Source of the DNA: a virus
Direction: 5' to 3' (one strand)
Virus record (IMG/VR): IMGVR_UViG_3300050015_000276
Coordinates: 1-64,000 of that record
Length of the DNA: 64,000 nucleotides
Position 1 is the stretch's first letter. Every line of letters begins with the position of its first letter. The notes below the pieces were generated by a model that had not been told where the DNA came from, made no database searches, and was given only the letters and a program-made list of their open reading frames with translations. The position numbers were made by a program, and so were the translations under genes. Positions 10,275-16,167 of this stretch are shown here, piece after piece.

Positions 10275-12971
10275 TTACGTATTGACACTGTTTCGGCCTC
10301 TTGTATCTCGAACCGTGTTATCATGATTGCGAGGTGTGGTAGTTGATGCAATAACGTTAGTGTGGTTTACTTGAGTATTGCTAGGTGCATTTACCACGTT
10401 TGTATTTTTGCTACTGTTTTGTTCCGCTTTTTTATCCTCTATTTGACTATTGGTAGACAAAAGATTCTGTCCGGTATTTGGAGAAGTTTTGGGTGCCATT
10501 GCTACTTGTGCATCTTTATCAAATGCCAAAGCTTCAGAATTTCTCCTTTTCGCTAAAACAGAATTAAATTCAGGCTTTCCTTGTTTGTTTTTAGAATTCA
10601 CATATTCTTGTATTTTGGCCGCAGCTTCTTTATTAGAATTTGGTCCGCCAGCATTTAATATTTCTGCCACTTTTGGTTTTGATTTTGAATCTGCTAATTC
10701 TTTTTTGCTACGAGTCAAGACTCCAGGTCCTAAATTGTAAGACATATCTACAAGAGAATCAAATTGTTCTTGCGTCAATGGTACTTTAATAGCTTTATTT
10801 ACAGCATCTTCATATTTTATAATGTCTTTTTTAAGCAATTCAATTGCTTGAGGTTTTGACAGGGATTTTAAATTTTCACCAGGTTGAATTTGATGACCAA
10901 ATCCAATTGACCAATGATCTGATCCTGGAGGATCATTGTATGGTTCGGTTGCATATCCTTCAGAATTTGTTAAATTTTTAAATGCTTCGGGACTCATTTT
11001 CATTTTTGTACTTGCCTTTTTCATTACCGGATTAGATTCTTTTGAAATTTCAGATATCGGTGGTGCCGGAATATTAGATTCTAAATTTGTTGCACTTGCA
11101 GGAGACGAAATAGGATTTGCAGAATTCACACCTGGTGACATAACTGGTGCAACTGGTGGTTTAACTGCTTCAGAAAAATTGGACACTTTAGGTGAAGTCG
11201 GAACTTTTTGTTCTTTCTTTTTATCTTCATGTTGGTCTTTTTCTTCTTTTTTGAAAGTTTTTTTAGCAATATTAGGGTAATGTATTGCTACCCAATCTCT
11301 AAATGATGCTCCGCCTGTTTTATCATTTTTAGCAAAAGCATCAAATGTTTCTGATACTTTACCAAACCAATTTTGATAAGGCATATACCAAGGTTTTTTA
11401 ACATCTACTCCCTGATCGTATAAAAATTCAGATTCTAAATCTGCCCATTCTTCTTGCGAAACTCCATTTACTTTCTTATCTTTTCCATATATTTTTGAGA
11501 AAGCAGATCGATCAATCAATTTTAAAGCGGTAAGTCCACCCATCGCGGCCGCGCCCAATCCAAGCCATGCACTACTTCCTGCGCCGGCCGCTCCTTCAGC
11601 AAGACCTCCAAGGCCTCCAGTGGCTTCTGCACCACCTACCGCCGCTTCTGCACCACCAGCAACGCCTTCACCCGCACCGCCTTTACCACCTTTAAAAAGA
11701 TTCGTAACTTTCTTTAATATACCACCGCCACTTTTATTTTTTTGTAAAGCCTTAGGTGTTATAGAATTTCCAGGTTCTAATAATTTAGGAGTTTCTCCAC
11801 TATTATCACTTCCTTTTTGTTCTTGTAATTCTTCATTTTTATCAATATCTTCTTTATGCCATTTAGTTAATTGTGAACCAATATTAACAATAACTTCTTG
11901 TAAATCTCCAAGATTTGTTTTTAATGTAGAGTTAACTTCTTCAATTCCACCTAATAATTTTGGTTCACCAGGAATAGTATTTTCTTTTGGTTCAGGTGTA
12001 TTATTAATTCCACCAAAACCTGCAATTACTCCTGCCTGTTTAGGAACTAAATTTCCTTCATCATAACCTTTAAGAAATTGTCCCTTTGGTCCGCGTTTTC
12101 TTTGTAATTTGCCAGGACCTAATAATTTAGGAGCATTCTGCTGTGCTACCCAATCAGCCGGAGGATCAGTAACAATTGGTGGAGGTGGAGTAACAATCGG
12201 TTCGTCTTTTTTACGTTCAGGTGCACCTAAAATTTCTTTTAGTAGTTCAGCTTGTTCTTCCTGTTTTTTGCGTGTTTCTTCTGCCGAAACCATTCGTGGT
12301 TCATAATTCGTTGGTGGTCTTGGAGGTTTGGCATCATACTTAGTATAGTTACGACCCGCGTAATCCTGATTACCAACATCTTCGTATTCACCAGTTTTAA
12401 TATTGTCTTCAGATTGTTTCGGTTCATCTGGTGTGAAAGTTTCTGGAGTGACCTTTTCAGGCTTCTTCTTTTTTTCTTTCTCCGGTTTTGATTCCCGTTC
12501 TTCTTGTTCTTTACGGCGCTTTCTTTTTCGAGGAGAAACTATTTCTTCAACATCATCGGAATCAAATATTCTTTTACCTTTTCTACGTTTTCTTTTTTTG
12601 AAAAGTTGTTCAGGAGAATTATCTTCACGCATCTTTAATAATTTGTCTCTTTGTTTAATCAAGAAGGCAAATTGATTCTGAGCATCCAATAATCCTTTTT
12701 TTGCTTTTTCTGTTTTTTTCTTATCAAGAAGAAATTTAATTCCTAGACCAATAAGAGGAGCCTTAGATGTAAATGCATCTATCATATCTTCGGCGCCATA
12801 ACCGTGACGTTCCAAAAAAGATCCAGTTTTATTGGATGTCTTTTTACTAGATTTTGAATCGAGAGATTTTTGACTATCGGCTAATTGTCTAGCAAGTTTT
12901 TTAATTTCAATATTAAGAATTTTAATATCTCGCCGAATTAAAATTGGTTCGCCAGGATTATTTTCAGGCAT
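10275..12971 (-). CDS. Tape-measure/baseplate-hub (gp29-like) protein with C-terminal GH24 lysozyme domain
   Basis: 898 aa, K/E-rich low-complexity body, Gly/Ala-rich segment, LTNSEGYATEPYND..WSIGFGH and LTQEQFDSLVDMSYNLG; follows gp26-gp51. Confidence 0.75.
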   Translation of the reverse strand: MPENNPGEPILIRRDIKILNIEIKKLARQLADSQKSLDSKSSKKTSNKTGSFLERHGYGAEDMIDAFTSKAPLIGLGIKFLLDKKKTEKAKKGLLDAQNQFAFLIKQRDKLLKMREDNSPEQLFKKRKRRKGKRIFDSDDVEEIVSPRKRKRRKEQEERESKPEKEKKKKPEKVTPETFTPDEPKQSEDNIKTGEYEDVGNQDYAGRNYTKYDAKPPRPPTNYEPRMVSAEETRKKQEEQAELLKEILGAPERKKDEPIVTPPPPIVTDPPADWVAQQNAPKLLGPGKLQRKRGPKGQFLKGYDEGNLVPKQAGVIAGFGGINNTPEPKENTIPGEPKLLGGIEEVNSTLKTNLGDLQEVIVNIGSQLTKWHKEDIDKNEELQEQKGSDNSGETPKLLEPGNSITPKALQKNKSGGGILKKVTNLFKGGKGGAGEGVAGGAEAAVGGAEATGGLGGLAEGAAGAGSSAWLGLGAAAMGGLTALKLIDRSAFSKIYGKDKKVNGVSQEEWADLESEFLYDQGVDVKKPWYMPYQNWFGKVSETFDAFAKNDKTGGASFRDWVAIHYPNIAKKTFKKEEKDQHEDKKKEQKVPTSPKVSNFSEAVKPPVAPVMSPGVNSANPISSPASATNLESNIPAPPISEISKESNPVMKKASTKMKMSPEAFKNLTNSEGYATEPYNDPPGSDHWSIGFGHQIQPGENLKSLSKPQAIELLKKDIIKYEDAVNKAIKVPLTQEQFDSLVDMSYNLGPGVLTRSKKELADSKSKPKVAEILNAGGPNSNKEAAAKIQEYVNSKNKQGKPEFNSVLAKRRNSEALAFDKDAQVAMAPKTSPNTGQNLLSTNSQIEDKKAEQNSSKNTNVVNAPSNTQVNHTNVIASTTTPRNHDNTVRDTRGRNSVNT

Positions 12972-12987: not shown

Positions 12988-13281
12988 TTATTTTACTTCT
13001 GTAGATTCGACCACTGCCTTGATATCTTTTATATCGGATTGAGCCTTTAATGTGGCTTGTGTTGCTTTACGCTTGGCTCTTTCATTTTCATATTCGCTAA
13101 CTTTCCTTGCACTAACAAATGTAGTCAAAGCTGTCGCAAATTCTTGCCAAACTTTCTCTTGGTTTCTCATTATGCCAATAAATATGAAAGAAGTGAATAC
13201 TAAAACAATAGCACCTGAAAGAGAAAATCCATCTAGGAAATGTGACCACCAATTATTGTATCTGTCATCAGGATTTGTCAT
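12988..13281 (-). CDS. Small membrane protein (holin-like possible)
   Basis: One strong TM segment, basic C-terminus; ATGA-coupled to the gp51 stop. Confidence 0.55.
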   Translation of the reverse strand: MTNPDDRYNNWWSHFLDGFSLSGAIVLVFTSFIFIGIMRNQEKVWQEFATALTTFVSARKVSEYENERAKRKATQATLKAQSDIKDIKAVVESTEVK

Positions 13282-13463
13282 CGCCTATTGATCCTTTCAT
13301 TTTCATCTTTGGCAAACTTATTCACAAGTTCTACATAGATCGCACGTTCCCATGGTATCATTTCTTCCAACTCAGTCAATGAGTACTTATAATGTAACAT
13401 CATTGCATGATTTGTTAGCATCAAATTTCCAAGAGATTCATGGCGGAGTCCGAGGCTAAAAAA
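13278..13463 (-). CDS. gp51: gp51-like baseplate hub assembly protein; frame has no start codon before its N-terminal HESL motif
   Basis: Not in the ORF track; -1 frame reads FFSLGLRHESLGNLMLTNHAMMLHYKYSLTELEEMIPWERAIYVELV, matching the HKYSLTELE.MIPWER.IY signature. Confidence 0.85.
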   Translation of the reverse strand, partial: FFSLGLRHESLGNLMLTNHAMMLHYKYSLTELEEMIPWERAIYVELVNKFAKDENERINRR

Positions 13464-14218
13464 CTTCTTGTTCCTTCAATGATAATATCAGCTTCATGTT
13501 TGCATTTTGGACATTTAAAATGCACTTCATGCCTAATAACTGGTAAGGTTTCAAAGAATTTCATAATCTTAGTAAATTGAGGTTGAGAAAGAGATTCTAA
13601 AAATGTTTTCAATTCCTCATTATCCATATATTCTTTTTCATAGGTATTACCCTTACCATCATAAATCATTTCTACGCATGATTGAATGAGAGCAAAAGAT
13701 TCATCCATATCATTACTTTCCAATACCGAATTTAAAGTTCGAAAGATTTCAAATGTTGGATATTTCATAATAATTCCAATACCATCTTGTAATTCAATTT
13801 TTGGATTATTTTCTGGATCTCTCTTTACTTCAATTTTATCTAAATTAACGGGAACATTAACAGTTACTCCGCAATAATCGCGTTTATTGCCTTCTTGGTC
13901 TTCAATTGTTTCTCCTGCGGGTAATTTATTACGACATTCGAAAGGAATGGTAACAATTTCTTCTACAGATTTACTTCGAAGTTTTAACCAAATATAATCA
14001 ATATCAAATACTGGTAATTTTTCAACATCTAAATTTCCAGAAAGAAGACAATTATTAATAACTTGTCGTAATGCTCTAATTTGGGCTTCGACATCATCAT
14101 CTACAGCAATCAAAAGTAATTTTTCTTCTTTGACTGTAAATGGTCTGTAAATAATCTGTTTTCCATTAGAAGGAAGTGTTAATGTATATTGTGGCGTATT
14201 AATCTTTGGTAATGACAT
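13421..14218 (-). CDS. gp26: Baseplate hub/tail assembly protein gp26
   Basis: MSLPKINTPQYTLTLPS...YRPFTVKEEK.LL, FDIDYIWLKLRSKSVEE, KFFETLP, CPKC. Confidence 0.92.
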   Translation of the reverse strand: MSLPKINTPQYTLTLPSNGKQIIYRPFTVKEEKLLLIAVDDDVEAQIRALRQVINNCLLSGNLDVEKLPVFDIDYIWLKLRSKSVEEIVTIPFECRNKLPAGETIEDQEGNKRDYCGVTVNVPVNLDKIEVKRDPENNPKIELQDGIGIIMKYPTFEIFRTLNSVLESNDMDESFALIQSCVEMIYDGKGNTYEKEYMDNEELKTFLESLSQPQFTKIMKFFETLPVIRHEVHFKCPKCKHEADIIIEGTRSFLASDSAMNLLEI

Positions 14219-14221
14219 ATT

Positions 14222-14962
14222 CTATTGCTCTTTTTGTGGACGTATTGTTGATTCGAATCCGGCAGGTGTTCCACCAGAAGATTCTATTGTTGTTGGTGTT
14301 CCTGAATTAATTCTCAGGTTCACCCATTTACGAAATGTAAAAGTAATTGGCAGAACATGAAATGTATTCATTATTCCATATTCTAAATGTAACTCGCCTA
14401 TTTCTTTTGGCCAGCACTGAAAAAACCTAACCCCATATGTTGCCTTGTCTGCTTCATCTAATTGATAAACATCCATTGTTGTTGCATAATCTGCAACATA
14501 ATTGAAATCAGATGTTTCTGGATCTTGGATTGTATACGACCATGCATCGAAAAAATGCTTTTCTACCATATCTCTTCCAACCATAAAAGATAACGTGGTA
14601 TTTGTATACACATCAACAAATGGAATATCAAAATATGCTCCGTAAGTTTTTACAGAATTAGTATTGAATGATTTGCCTGGTAAATCTGCCTTGTTACACA
14701 TAAAGTCAAGCCGATTGGGAATATCACTTTCAGCTATATCCATCACTTCAAAATAATTAGAAGGTAATCCTTGAGATTGTGTATTACTTCCATTTAATTG
14801 CGACTGTTGTTGTGCCGCATGTATTTGCTGTAGTGTTAAATTATTATTTTGATTTATTATGGAAGAAATATTTGGCGGTACAATTTGTACGGCAAAGCGA
14901 TTAGGTCTAGCCAATCCACCAGCTTTGGTAATTTGTGAAATGAGATCTTGTATTTTTGCCAT
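14222..14962 (-). CDS. Tail tube initiator, gp54-like (gp19 fold)
   Basis: GGLARPNRFAV, CNKADLPGK, FFDAW, YQLD, CWPKEIG; between gp2 and gp26. Confidence 0.8.
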   Translation of the reverse strand: MAKIQDLISQITKAGGLARPNRFAVQIVPPNISSIINQNNNLTLQQIHAAQQQSQLNGSNTQSQGLPSNYFEVMDIAESDIPNRLDFMCNKADLPGKSFNTNSVKTYGAYFDIPFVDVYTNTTLSFMVGRDMVEKHFFDAWSYTIQDPETSDFNYVADYATTMDVYQLDEADKATYGVRFFQCWPKEIGELHLEYGIMNTFHVLPITFTFRKWVNLRINSGTPTTIESSGGTPAGFESTIRPQKEQ

Positions 14963-14963
14963 A

Positions 14964-15692
14964 TTAACTCTTTGTTGGTGCGCCATTACTTGGAGCTACT
15001 TTAGATGCTGTTGAAGTTCTCTGAGAATTTTTTGGTAAACCGGTATTACCTATTGTCGATTTATTTCCGGAAATAATTTCATCAGAATGATTCCATACGG
15101 CCGTTTTTGATTTCTTGGCAAAATTCTCCACAGGAAGGAAAAGAGATATTTCCCAATCCGGAGCATCAATTTTAACAAGATTTGATGTTATGTGTTGTGG
15201 CAAATATTTATGAAAACAGGGTTTGAAAGCCTTAAATCTTGCCATACCTTTTAACATTTTATAAGACAGTTGTAATTTGGTTCTTTCATCTGTCAATTTA
15301 TTTGTGGCCAAGGTTGCTAACTCATGAAAAAGTAATAAACGTTGACGATATCCTAGATAATGAAAATTTATACCCATCAATGTTCCATCAGAACAAGGAC
15401 CAATAAAGAATACTAGAGGAAAACGATCATAAAAAGGAAGAGTCTTTTTTAACTTGGGATCATAGCAAAATAAATATAAACGACCTGGAAAATATTGAGA
15501 TCTAGACCTTGATGCGTCTGAAAGCATTTCTTTTCGTAATCCAGAACCACGCGAATAATGCGAATCGCCAGCAAAACCAGACAATTCTCGAATTTTATTT
15601 CGGTACCAGCGGATAGATTCTTCAATAGATTTTTGAAGAGGTTGTTTTTGCATAACCAACCTCACACGGTCAAGAATATTATTTTGTGGCAT
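14964..15692 (-). CDS. gp2: DNA end protector gp2
   Basis: GRLYLFCYDPKLKKTLPFYDRFPL, GINFHYL, W...FLPVENF. Confidence 0.92.
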   Translation of the reverse strand: MPQNNILDRVRLVMQKQPLQKSIEESIRWYRNKIRELSGFAGDSHYSRGSGLRKEMLSDASRSRSQYFPGRLYLFCYDPKLKKTLPFYDRFPLVFFIGPCSDGTLMGINFHYLGYRQRLLLFHELATLATNKLTDERTKLQLSYKMLKGMARFKAFKPCFHKYLPQHITSNLVKIDAPDWEISLFLPVENFAKKSKTAVWNHSDEIISGNKSTIGNTGLPKNSQRTSTASKVAPSNGAPTKS

Positions 15693-15709: not shown

Positions 15710-16144
15710 TTATTTATAAATGTCATTTTCTGTCATAATACGCCATTCCCAACCTTTTGCTTTACAAAATGCCGCGGCAGCTTTCCATTTTGCAATATTA
15801 ACAGCATAAACCATACACTCAGCAAAATATTTTTTTGTTTTCCTTTTTGGTACTTTTGGAGGAATAGTTTGTCTTTGTGGTTTCACTTCTATCATTATAA
15901 TTTTTGTTTTATCATCTTTTGTTTTGGCATATATTACAAAATCCGGAAAATATTTGCGAATTTGATTATATCTAGGAGAAAAATAAGGAATTTGAATTTC
16001 CTCCGAACTCCATTTAAGTACCGCAAATGATGCATCGAAGTAACGCATCATTTTCCTTTCCCAACTAGATCTGTAAATTATCTTAGTTGGATCTCCAATA
16101 TATTTTTTTGGATTTGTAGGTTTATACTTTCCTGAATAGGCCAT
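15710..16144 (-). CDS. gp4: Head completion nuclease gp4 (TnsA-like)
   Basis: MAYSGKYKPTNPKKYIGDPTKIIYRSSWE, YFPDF, IEVKP, KWKAA. Confidence 0.93.
   Translation of the reverse strand: MAYSGKYKPTNPKKYIGDPTKIIYRSSWERKMMRYFDASFAVLKWSSEEIQIPYFSPRYNQIRKYFPDFVIYAKTKDDKTKIIMIEVKPQRQTIPPKVPKRKTKKYFAECMVYAVNIAKWKAAAAFCKAKGWEWRIMTENDIYK
15712..15719 (-). promoter_or_regulatory. T4-type late promoter upstream of gp2
   Basis: TATAAATA on the minus strand, 20 nt before the gp2 ATG. Confidence 0.75.
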
Positions 16145-16151
16145 ATAAATA
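16144..16151 (+). promoter_or_regulatory. T4-type late promoter upstream of gp48
   Basis: TATAAATA 16 nt before ATG; (C)ATAAATA/CTAAATA variants also precede gp5, fibre, GT, gp25, the 30080 gene and 35940. Confidence 0.75.
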
Positions 16152-16167
16152 TATATCAGAGACATCT

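What the first reader, a model, noticed from the sequence alone, without database searches (positions are those of the whole stretch)
13278..13470. Programmed -1 frameshift (U_UUU_UUA) fusing gp26 to gp51, a lambda G/GT-like chaperone switch in a T4-like phage
Seen: gp26 ends ...EGTRS-F-L-ASDSAMNLLEI*, with codons AGT TTT TTA (minus strand 13465-13457), a perfect X_XXY_YYZ heptamer. The -1 frame is closed by a TGA four codons earlier and contains no ATG/GTG/TTG before the HESLGN motif. It reads FFSLGLRHESLGNLMLTNHAMMLHYKYSLTELEEMIPWERAIY... and its stop overlaps the next ATG. The predicted fusion is 313 aa versus 265 aa. Established: U_UUU_UUA is the HIV-1 slippery site, and -1 shifts make G/GT tail chaperones next to tape-measure genes in many tailed phages. 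Inference: gp26/gp51 are the T4-superfamily G/GT pair. Caveat: two other A-run indels in this window mean a missing T from sequencing error is possible.
Basis: partly seen in the sequence, partly recalled or inferred. Interest (0 to 1): 0.8.

Follow-up and report, generated by a model that had tools for sequence, protein, structure and literature searches.

The report
Frameshift-made tail chaperone pair gp26/gp51
This T4-like phage makes a short and a long version of its tail-assembly chaperone from one gene, by slipping back one base on a run of six Ts; the signal is real and present in every relative examined, but citing papers indicate it was already described for T4-like phages in 2022.

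Summary
On the minus strand, the gp26 gene (14218-13421, PF12322 at 3.7e-60) carries an in-phase T_TTT_TTA heptamer at 13463-13457. The -1 frame is open from there to the TGA at 13280-13278 and encodes the 59-residue "gp51" module. The predicted products are 265 aa and 313 aa.

- All 91 related loci examined, plus Vibrio phage KVP40 and Aeromonas phage Aeh1, have T_TTT_TTN in the same phase with the gp51 module in -1.
- The site is constrained at synonymous positions across 75 unique sequences. The base before the run is always T and the first Phe codon is always TTT. The second Phe codon is TTC in 60 of 68 cases, against a 25% background.
- T4 encodes the two forms as separate divergent paralogues. 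T4 gp26 ends at the slip-site column, and T4 gp51 is collinear with the predicted fusion.
- The window's 180-kb genome has only one PF12322 gene.
- The three best structural matches to the gp26 model's N-terminal domain include the HK97 tail assembly chaperone.

It is not new. Two papers cite Vladimirov, Gautam and Davidson (Virology 2022) for identifying gp26/gp51 as the tail assembly chaperones of T4-like phages, with poly-T shift signals. I could not read that paper itself.

This clade differs in three ways: a Leu codon (UUA/UUG) in the A site, an 11-codon unconserved 0-frame tail, and an ATG overlapping the gp26 stop.

The parts
13421..14218 (-). gp26 / short chaperone form (TAC-N) ORF, 265 aa including the 11-codon 0-frame tail; stop TGA at 13423-13421
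   Evidence: ORF list. PF12322 at 3.7e-60 and phrog_150 at 2.3e-65. AF2 model pLDDT 87. Model residues 1-94 match TAC structures 3fgx, 2ob9 and 3klu at Z 5.4-6.7.
13457..13463 (-). Slippery heptamer T_TTT_TTA (U_UUU_UUA), in phase with gp26 codons AGT TTT TTA
   Evidence: The same in-phase T_TTT_TTN occurs in 91 of 91 related loci and in KVP40 and Aeh1. Synonymous-site constraint shown.
13472..13477 (-). GAAGGA (Glu-Gly codons), a Shine-Dalgarno-like motif; its GG lies 9 nt 5' of the heptamer. Possible stimulator (inference).
   Evidence: GARGGN sits at this fixed position in nearly all 74 unique contexts. It cannot be separated from conservation of the E-G residues.
13424..13456 (-). 0-frame tail of the short form (ASDSAMNLLEI), overlapping the start of the -1 module
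   Evidence: Not conserved in length or sequence: 0-2 codons in most relatives, 8-11 in L002, L016-L020 and the window. pLDDT below 50 in the model.
13278..13457 (-). -1 frame 'gp51' C-terminal module, 59 codons plus the TGA stop; together with residues 1-254 of gp26 it gives the 313-aa long form (TAC-NC)
   Evidence: phrog_634 at 2.1e-19 from residue 2, and phrog_150 positions 231-281. tblastn matches in 475 phage records. Alignment A2. Collinear with the T4 gp51 C-terminus.
13419..13421 (-). ATG in the -1 frame overlapping the gp26 stop (TGATG); a possible coupled start for a stand-alone 47-aa peptide (rival)
   Evidence: The Met is not conserved at this position (L018 has LIL; cyanophages have Y/F).
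14222..14986 (-). Upstream neighbour: tail-tube-family protein (gp54/gp19-like), 254 aa
   Evidence: phrog_45 at 2.4e-37 and phrog_3629 at 3.5e-36. PF23849 is weak.
12988..13281 (-). 97-aa predicted membrane protein between the chaperone genes and the large downstream gene; its ATG overlaps the gp51 stop
   Evidence: Only a weak phrog_14388 hit. A small ORF sits at the same place in Mosig, Cr30 and phiN3.
10275..12971 (-). 898-aa low-complexity protein with a C-terminal phage lysozyme domain; candidate tape measure by position only
   Evidence: PF00959 at residues 669-813. No similarity to T4 gp29. The nearest named ESM-Atlas clusters are T4_Tape_measure at 0.85, which is a lead only. Cr30 annotates the gene at the same position as tape measure.

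Best explanation
The gp26 gene encodes the tail assembly chaperone of this T4-like phage and yields two proteins with the same N-terminus.

Most ribosomes read straight through U_UUU_UUA and stop 11 codons later, giving the 265-aa short form (TAC-N, equivalent to T4 gp26). A minority slip back one base on the heptamer: the P-site tRNA-Phe moves from UUU to UUU and the A-site tRNA-Leu from UUA to UUU. These ribosomes continue in the -1 frame through the 59-residue gp51 module, giving a 313-aa long form (TAC-NC, equivalent to full-length T4 gp51).

By analogy with lambda G/GT and with genetics on T4 gp26/gp51, both forms are expected to act on the tape-measure/hub complex during tail initiation and to be absent from the virion.

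Shown here: the signal, its conservation and codon-level constraint, the collinearity with T4 gp51, the single gene copy, and the chaperone-like fold.

Inferred: that the shift is ribosomal rather than transcriptional, its efficiency, the stimulators, and the molecular role of each domain.
For: 1. Conservation. The in-phase T_TTT_TTN heptamer, followed by a 58-76-codon -1 ORF carrying the gp51 motif, is found in 91 of 91 loci. These are 80 IMG/VR contigs, 10 cultured phages infecting cyanobacteria, Pelagibacter, Pseudomonas, Caulobacter and Sinorhizobium, and the window. It is also present in KVP40 and Aeh1.
2. Codon-level constraint over 75 unique sites. The third base of the preceding codon is T in 75 of 75 (background 81%). 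The P-site codon is TTT in 75 of 75 (background 75%). The A-site Phe codon is TTC in 60 of 68 (background 25%). The preceding residue varies (S, N, D, A) while its T is kept.
3. The -1 translation matches phrog_634 from residue 2, upstream of any start codon, and matches the C-terminal end of the gp26 family profile phrog_150. The stretch before the first Met is conserved: L9, N11, T15 and N16.
4. T4 gp51 residues 1-201 match PF12322 at 3.9e-52 and its tail matches phrog_634. In the multiple alignment, T4 gp26 ends ...GLKEFFELL at the slip column and T4 gp51 runs through it.
5. Copy number fits. T4, RB49 and RB43 have two PF12322 genes. KVP40, Aeh1 and the window's complete 179,687-bp genome have one.
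6. Fold. The three best of 48,161 chains all align to residues 1-94 of the gp26 model. They are 3fgx, 2ob9 (HK97 tail assembly chaperone) and 3klu, at Z 6.7, 5.6 and 5.4.
7. Synteny. The order is tail-tube-family gene, chaperone, small ORF, large tape-measure-like gene.
8. Literature. PMC10885494 and PMC12846349 cite Vladimirov et al. 2022 for exactly this system.
Against: - No expression data exist for this uncultured phage.
- The window has no convincing downstream stem-loop or pseudoknot: z = +0.4 over 60 nt and -0.9 over 117 nt.
- The conserved FF residues and the E-G residues could explain part of the nucleotide conservation.
- An ATG overlapping the gp26 stop (TGATG) could start a free 47-aa peptide.
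- The loci are phylogenetically related, so the naive probabilities overstate independence.
[quoted passage not shown] I could not read it, so I cannot say whether that phrase also concerns the poly-T sites.
Confidence: 0.72

Rival explanations
1. The same two products are made, but by transcriptional slippage. RNA polymerase stutters on the T6 run and adds one U to a fraction of the mRNAs, which then read gp26-gp51 as one frame. The junction would be SFFSLGLR.
For: The signal is a homopolymer run, and a few relatives have T7-T9 (L062, L075, L077, Cr30, phiN3). No conserved downstream RNA structure was found. The title of Vladimirov et al. 2022 mentions a non-translational mechanism, although the PRFect paper explains this as separate genes.
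Against: - Most sites are only T6. As far as I recall, efficient bacterial RNA polymerase slippage needs runs of about 8-9.
- T7 is avoided: the A-site codon is TTC in 60 of 68 Phe cases against a 25% background. This is the opposite of what 'longer is better' predicts.
- The run is always in the X_XXY_YYZ phase. No case of xxV TTT TTT occurs, although it would give an equally long run.
- From my own recollection, T6N heptamers are established ribosomal shift sites in other phage tail chaperone genes, for example P2 E/E'.
Confidence: 0.12
2. There is no recoding. gp51 is a free 47-aa protein started at the ATG (13421) that overlaps the gp26 stop, by translational coupling. The T-run is only the codons of a conserved Phe-Phe/Leu motif.
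For: TGATG overlap, with a weak GGA 7 nt upstream. Cr30 and phiN3 also have an ATG within a few codons of the heptamer that overlaps the 0-frame stop (TGATG). Database records annotate gp51 as a separate small gene.
Against: - The 12 -1-frame residues upstream of that ATG are conserved and belong to the gp51 profile.
- The Met is missing at this position in L017-L020 and in cyanophages, where the first ATG lies about 20 codons into the conserved module.
- Annotated starts differ from record to record.
- Synonymous positions of the heptamer are constrained.
- T4 gp51 is a full fusion.
Confidence: 0.07
3. Assembly or sequencing error: the true run is T7 and gp26-gp51 is a plain fused gene. Alternatively, the gene is a fresh pseudogene.
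Against: - The same frame relation holds in 91 independent loci, including finished genomes of cultured phages.
- A permanently fused gene would leave no short form, whereas T4 keeps a separate short gp26.
- The closest relatives, L012-L020, share TTTTTTA or TTTTTTG.
Confidence: 0.02

Closest known systems
T4-like phage tail assembly chaperones gp26 (TAC-N) and gp51 (TAC-NC), as described by Vladimirov, Gautam and Davidson, Virology 2022 (known to me only through PMC10885494 and PMC12846349)
   Same: Orthologous genes: PF12322 domain plus the gp51 C-terminal module. A poly-T shift signal sits at the 3' end of the short gene, and there are short and long forms.
   Different: T4, RB49 and RB43 encode the long form as a second, separate gene and need no shift. 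The window uses one gene. Its clade has UUA/UUG (Leu) instead of UUC (Phe) in the A site and an 11-codon 0-frame tail.
Lambda G/GT tail assembly chaperones (-1 shift at G_GGA_AAG; Levin 1993 and Xu 2004, cited from memory)
   Same: Two N-terminally identical products made by a -1 shift near the end of the short ORF. The gene lies between the tail tube gene and a large tape-measure-like gene. The proteins are expected to be absent from virions.
   Different: No detectable sequence similarity. gp26 is about twice the size of gpG and carries a four-Cys motif. The heptamer differs. This is a contractile-tail phage with a baseplate hub.
P2 E/E' (myophage chaperone pair with a T_TTT_TTG heptamer; Christie 2002, cited from memory)
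   Same: A T6N slippery heptamer in a contractile-tail phage chaperone gene; L013 in the window's clade has exactly TTTTTTG.
   Different: Unrelated in sequence; the proteins are much smaller.
HK97 gp10 tail assembly chaperone structure (PDB 2ob9), with 3klu (YqbN) and 3fgx
   Same: Residues 1-94 of the gp26 model superpose on these chains over 85-86 residues at Z 5.4-6.7. They are the three best of 48,161 chains.
   Different: Z is below 8 and sequence identity is 7-9%. gp26 has about 160 further residues (an alpha/beta domain with a Cys4 site) that have no counterpart in these chains.

Membership tests
T4 gp26/gp51 family (Pfam PF12322, PHROG 150/634) | PF12322 T4_baseplate domain over its full length | tested here: met
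   Residues 9-254, profile positions 2-218 of 219, E 3.7e-60; phrog_150 at 2.3e-65.
T4 gp26/gp51 family (Pfam PF12322, PHROG 150/634) | gp51-type C-terminal module collinear with the end of the gp26 domain | tested here: met
   The -1 translation hits phrog_634 at 2.1e-19 and phrog_150 positions 231-281. In the multiple alignment, T4 gp51 runs through the junction and T4 gp26 ends at it.
Phage tail assembly chaperone pair (TAC-N / TAC-NC, lambda G/GT type) | [quoted passage not shown] | tested here: met
   At sequence level only: the heptamer plus an open -1 ORF without a start codon, conserved in 91 of 91 loci. Whether both products are made is not testable with these tools.
Phage tail assembly chaperone pair (TAC-N / TAC-NC, lambda G/GT type) | Gene lies between the tail tube gene and the tape measure gene | tested here: inconclusive
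   The upstream neighbour is tail-tube family (phrog_45 at 2.4e-37). The downstream 898-aa protein shows no similarity to T4 gp29. Only an Atlas lead at 0.85 to T4_Tape_measure and Cr30's annotation of the gene at the same position support it.
Phage tail assembly chaperone pair (TAC-N / TAC-NC, lambda G/GT type) | TAC fold as in HK97 gp10 | tested here: met
   The VIA-align wide search puts 3fgx, 2ob9 and 3klu as its top three at Z 6.7, 5.6 and 5.4, with 85-86 residues aligned on model residues 1-94. In Foldseek, 2ob9 has the highest probability (0.6-0.77) but E is about 0.3. The strength of this match is moderate.
Phage tail assembly chaperone pair (TAC-N / TAC-NC, lambda G/GT type) | Required for tail assembly and absent from the mature virion | not testable with these tools
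   Known for T4 gp51 (PMC3004832). No data exist for this uncultured phage.
Canonical bacterial -1 programmed ribosomal frameshift site | X_XXY_YYZ heptamer in the 0-frame phase | tested here: met
   U_UUU_UUA at 13463-13457, read as AGU UUU UUA. The phase is invariant in relatives.
Canonical bacterial -1 programmed ribosomal frameshift site | Downstream stimulatory stem-loop or pseudoknot | tested here: not met
   Window: z = +0.4 over 60 nt and -0.9 over 117 nt. Some relatives do have strong hairpins (S-WAM1 z -6.9, P-SSM2 z -3.7, L012 z -3.9), but no conserved structure exists.
Canonical bacterial -1 programmed ribosomal frameshift site | Upstream Shine-Dalgarno-like stimulator about 10 nt 5' of the site | tested here: inconclusive
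   GAAGGA at 13477-13472, with its GG 9 nt 5' of the heptamer. GARGGN is at the same place in nearly all relatives. It encodes the conserved E-G residues, so the two constraints cannot be separated.
Transcriptional slippage (RNA polymerase stuttering) sites | Long homopolymer run (about 8-9 or more), with no dependence on reading phase | tested here: not met
   T6 in 82 of 91 loci. T7 is avoided at the synonymous A-site position (60 of 68 TTC), and the phase is invariant.

The most novel reading that the evidence does not exclude
The comparative data may add three details.
1. The shift is ribosomal and phase-locked, with U_UUU_UUC actively preferred over U7.
2. The conserved Glu-Gly codons 9 nt upstream double as an internal Shine-Dalgarno stimulator, and lineages that lack them (L062, L075, L077) compensate with T7-T9 runs.
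3. The window's clade has re-tuned the site (Leu UUA/UUG in the A site, stop moved 11 codons downstream, overlapping ATG), so that it may make three products: short, long and a free gp51 peptide.
Probability: 0.3. Interest if true: 0.4.

Novelty: already known. Interest (0 to 1): 0.3.

Why it matters
The chaperone pair and its recoding signal are needed to build the tail of a very abundant group of marine and soil phages. Public records still annotate "gp51, baseplate hub assembly catalyst" as a free 45-60-aa gene with arbitrary start codons, or omit it. Sullivan et al. 2010 listed Aeh1 as lacking gp51, yet the module is there in the -1 frame.

The practical value is therefore correct annotation, with ribosomal_slippage joins on gp26. 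The finding also gives a clear example of one function being encoded either by one gene plus a frameshift or by two paralogous genes. The window's phage has a Leu codon in the A site, so its junction peptide would separate ribosomal from transcriptional slippage.

Tried and rejected
- Pairwise BLASTP of the predicted fusion against T4 gp51 and gp26 gave only weak hits (E 0.001 and 2e-6). Profiles and a multiple alignment were needed.
- The downstream 898-aa protein could not be tied to T4 gp29. BLASTP gave E 0.34. A genome-wide search with gp29 found nothing. PHROGs on residues 1-624 found nothing.
- The search for a downstream RNA stimulator found nothing in the window and no conserved structure in relatives.
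- The PDB search by sequence profile found nothing.
- Foldseek against the PDB gave no hit with E <= 0.001.
- The promoter and terminator scan between gp26 and gp51 was unremarkable.
- The only tRNA in the window is tRNA-Pro, so no phage tRNA-Phe or tRNA-Leu bears on the site.
- The primary paper (doi 10.1016/j.virol.2021.11.003) is not held. Three further literature searches gave no fuller account of it.
- I did not fold the 313-aa fusion.
Full report
**1. What is in the sequence.**
On the minus strand an ORF runs from 14218 to 13421 (265 aa) and ends ...IIIEGTRSFLASDSAMNLLEI*. It is a full-length member of Pfam PF12322 "T4_baseplate" (E 3.7e-60) and of PHROG 150 "baseplate hub", the T4 gp26 family.

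Codons AGT TTT TTA occupy 13465-13457, so an X_XXY_YYZ heptamer T_TTT_TTA lies at 13463-13457 in the 0-frame phase. The -1 frame has a stop four codons before the two Phe codons. It is then open for 59 codons after the heptamer, to the TGA at 13280-13278. It reads SLGLRHESLGNLMLTNHAMMLHYKYSLTELEEMIPWERAIYVELVNKFAKDENERINRR. That TGA overlaps the ATG of the next ORF.

The predicted fusion is 254 + 59 = 313 aa.

Two details need adding.
- A tandem ribosomal slip would keep Leu at the A site, so the junction is SFLSLGLR. SFFSLGLR would arise only from an mRNA with an extra U.
- TTG and ATG codons (13424 and 13421) follow directly after ...HESLGN. The ATG overlaps the gp26 stop as TGATG, the classic arrangement for coupled re-initiation.

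A T6 run alone means nothing here: the window has 91 of them, fewer than the 185 expected from shuffles.

**2. The -1 ORF is the gp51 module and is coding upstream of any start codon.**
The 61-residue -1 translation matches PHROG 634 "baseplate hub assembly catalyst" (E 2.1e-19) from its second residue. It also matches positions 231-281 of the 282-position gp26 profile PHROG 150. tblastn finds it in 475 phage records, nearly always from query residue 1, with the match lying across both the annotated "gp26" and "gp51" features.

In an alignment of 31 such modules, the stretch before the first common Met is conserved. L9, N11 and T15 are at 90% or more, and N16 is invariant. By contrast, the 0-frame tail after the heptamer is conserved in neither length nor sequence. 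It is 0-2 codons long in most relatives and 8-11 in L002, L016-L020 and the window. It is disordered in the structure model, with pLDDT below 50 for residues 256-265.

**3. Conservation of the signal.**
I examined ten cultured phages: P-TIM40, Pelagibacter phage Mosig, S-WAM1, P-SSM2, syn9, ACG-2014b, ACG-2014d, Pseudomonas phage Milchi, Caulobacter phage Cr30 and Sinorhizobium phage phiN3. I also examined 80 IMG/VR contigs found with the gp26 protein.

All 91 loci, the window included, have T_TTT_TTN in the same phase at the end of gp26. The last base is C in 71, A in 10, T in 9 and G in 1. In 87 loci a 58-76-codon -1 ORF with the H..L.N....N..LM.HHKYSLTELE.M.PWER motif follows; in the other four the contig ends within the ORF. 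The window's nearest relatives (L012-L020, 58-69% identity) have TTTTTTA or TTTTTTG, and L017-L020 share the 11-codon 0-frame tail.

Over 75 unique sites:
- The codon before the run is AGT, AAT, GAT, TCT or GCT, so its third base is always T (background for such codons in the same genes: 81% T).
- The P-site codon is always TTT (background 75%).
- The A-site Phe codon is TTC in 60 of 68 cases (background 25%).

The naive probabilities are 1e-7, 4e-10 and 9e-28. They overstate independence because the loci are related. The pattern is still clear: synonymous positions are held to a specific heptamer, and a T7 run is avoided.

**4. The T4 comparison.**
In T4, gene 26 (208 aa, minus strand) and gene 51 (249 aa, plus strand) are divergent neighbours. 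T4 gp51 residues 1-201 match PF12322 at 3.9e-52. The whole protein covers PHROG 150 positions 13-280, and its residues 147-246 match PHROG 634. T4 gp26 covers only positions 14-235.

In a MAFFT alignment of predicted fusions with both T4 proteins, T4 gp26 ends ...RGLKEFFELL exactly at the slip-site column. T4 gp51 continues collinearly (...[45 protein letters not shown]...) along the -1 module. So T4 makes the short and long forms from two paralogous genes, and the predicted fusion is the counterpart of full-length T4 gp51.

Copy number agrees with this. T4, RB49 and RB43 have two PF12322 genes. KVP40 and Aeh1 have one, and both carry GAT TTT TTC, a stop one codon later, and the gp51 module in -1. 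The window's own genome is a complete 179,687-bp record with terminal repeats and has a single PF12322 gene. A long form can therefore come only from this locus.

**5. Is it a tail assembly chaperone?**
An AlphaFold2 model of gp26 built on 45 sequences has mean pLDDT 87 and pTM 0.81. Foldseek found nothing significant, although the HK97 tail assembly chaperone 2ob9 had the highest probability (0.6-0.77).

The Foldseek-independent search of 48,161 chains put three structures on top, all aligned to model residues 1-94:
- 3fgx (Z 6.7, 86 residues)
- 2ob9, the HK97 tail assembly chaperone (Z 5.6, 85 residues)
- 3klu, YqbN (Z 5.4, 86 residues)

From memory, 3fgx and 3klu are the prophage proteins grouped with HK97 gp10 by Pell et al. 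2013. These Z values are moderate. The point is that the three best hits all align to the same N-terminal domain and include a known chaperone.

Gene order fits as well. A tail-tube-family gene (14986-14222; phrog_45 at 2.4e-37) comes first, then gp26/gp51, then a 97-aa membrane protein, then an 898-aa low-complexity protein. I could not confirm the last as a tape measure. It shows no similarity to T4 gp29. Only a language-model lead to T4_Tape_measure clusters at 0.85 supports it, together with Cr30's annotation of the gene at the same position.

**6. Mechanism.**
The best-supported reading is a programmed -1 ribosomal frameshift on U_UUU_UUA.

In favour of a ribosomal rather than a transcriptional shift:
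- The phase never varies.
- xxV TTT TTT, an equally long run in another phase, never occurs.
- T7 is selected against.
- T6 is short for RNA polymerase stuttering. This last point rests on my own knowledge.

Possible stimulators:
- The GAAGGA at 13477-13472, whose GG lies 9 nt 5' of the heptamer. GARGGN is at that position in nearly all relatives. The three lineages without it (L062, L075, L077) have T7-T9 runs. The motif also encodes conserved Glu-Gly, which T4 gp26 partly keeps (Arg-Gly) without any frameshift, so this remains an inference.
- In most relatives, a 0-frame stop one codon after the heptamer. The window lacks this.
- The window has no significant downstream structure (z +0.4 and -0.9), though some relatives do.

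Rivals, with my estimates: transcriptional slippage (0.12), a free gp51 peptide from the overlapping ATG with no fusion (0.07), and sequencing error (0.02). The free peptide could also be made in addition to the fusion.

**7. Comparison with what is known.**
Sullivan et al. 2010 noted that cyanophage and marine vibriophage gp51 lack the first ~200 residues of T4 gp51, and that Aeh1 lacks gp51 (PMC3037559).

The PRFect paper states that some T4-like phages carry a short chaperone gene and a separate long fused gene instead of frameshifting. It cites Vladimirov, Gautam and Davidson, Virology 2022 (PMC10885494). The phage Adele paper cites the same work for poly-T -1 frameshift signals in TAC-N genes of T4-like phages (PMC12846349). 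The primary paper is not in the library, so I know its content only through these summaries.

On that basis, both the identification of gp26/gp51 as the G/GT counterpart and the poly-T signal are published. I found no experimental demonstration of the fusion in the papers held.

**8. Verdict.**
The feature is real, ancient and widespread. Its novelty is low ("already known").

The remaining interest lies in three places:
- The codon-level evidence for a phase-locked heptamer.
- This clade's variant site: Leu in the A site, a long 0-frame tail, and an overlapping ATG.
- The systematic mis-annotation of gp51 in public records.

Earlier notes of this scan gave only context. They describe the genome as a complete 180-kb T4-like phage and place gp5 elsewhere in the window. 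None concerns this locus.

Noticed in passing
window 10275-12971 (-): An 898-aa Lys/Pro/Gly-rich protein with a phage lysozyme domain (PF00959, residues 669-813) sits where a tape measure is expected. Cyanophage records call the gene at the same position 'endolysin' or 'hypothetical'. It shows no similarity to T4 gp29, and the genome has no gp29 homologue. It may be a tape measure with a built-in lysozyme.
   Followed up: partly
window 12988-13281 (-): A 97-aa protein with one predicted membrane helix lies between gp51 and the large gene, and its ATG overlaps the gp51 stop. A small ORF sits at the same place in Mosig, Cr30 and phiN3. Its function is unknown.
   Followed up: no
L098 (Aeromonas phage Aeh1, NC_005260 119007-119723 and downstream): Sullivan et al. 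2010 listed Aeh1 as the one T4-like phage lacking gp51. The gp51 module is present in the -1 frame after GAT TTT TTC at the end of gp26.
   Followed up: yes
L101/L104 (Escherichia phage RB43, NC_007023 64622-65903): RB43 has two PF12322 matches in tandem on the same strand (profile positions 1-189 and 60-219). T4 and RB49 instead have a divergent pair. I did not resolve whether these are two genes or one interrupted gene.
   Followed up: no
L062:2717-2725, L075, L077 (IMG/VR contigs): Three divergent lineages lack the upstream Glu-Gly / GARGG motif and have longer T runs (T7-T9) at the shift site. This may be a different balance of stimulators, or a shift towards transcriptional slippage.
   Followed up: partly
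window 13424-14218 (-), residues C95, C116, C236, C239: Four nearly invariant cysteines, including a CPKC motif just before the slip site, suggest a zinc site tying the C-terminal hairpin to the middle of gp26. T4 gp26 and gp51 keep the CP(E/K)C motif.
   Followed up: no
window 15710-16165 (-): The gp4-like head closure protein (phrog_218 at 3.5e-52) also matches Pfam PF08722, the TnsA-like endonuclease N-terminal domain (6.7e-21).
   Followed up: no
phage records (e.g. NC_031944 S-WAM1, NC_062734 ACG-2014d, NC_027130 ACG-2014b): In many deposited genomes the gp51 module is not annotated at all. Where it is annotated, its start codon differs from record to record. None of the ten regions inspected marks a joined (frameshifted) CDS.
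   Followed up: partly
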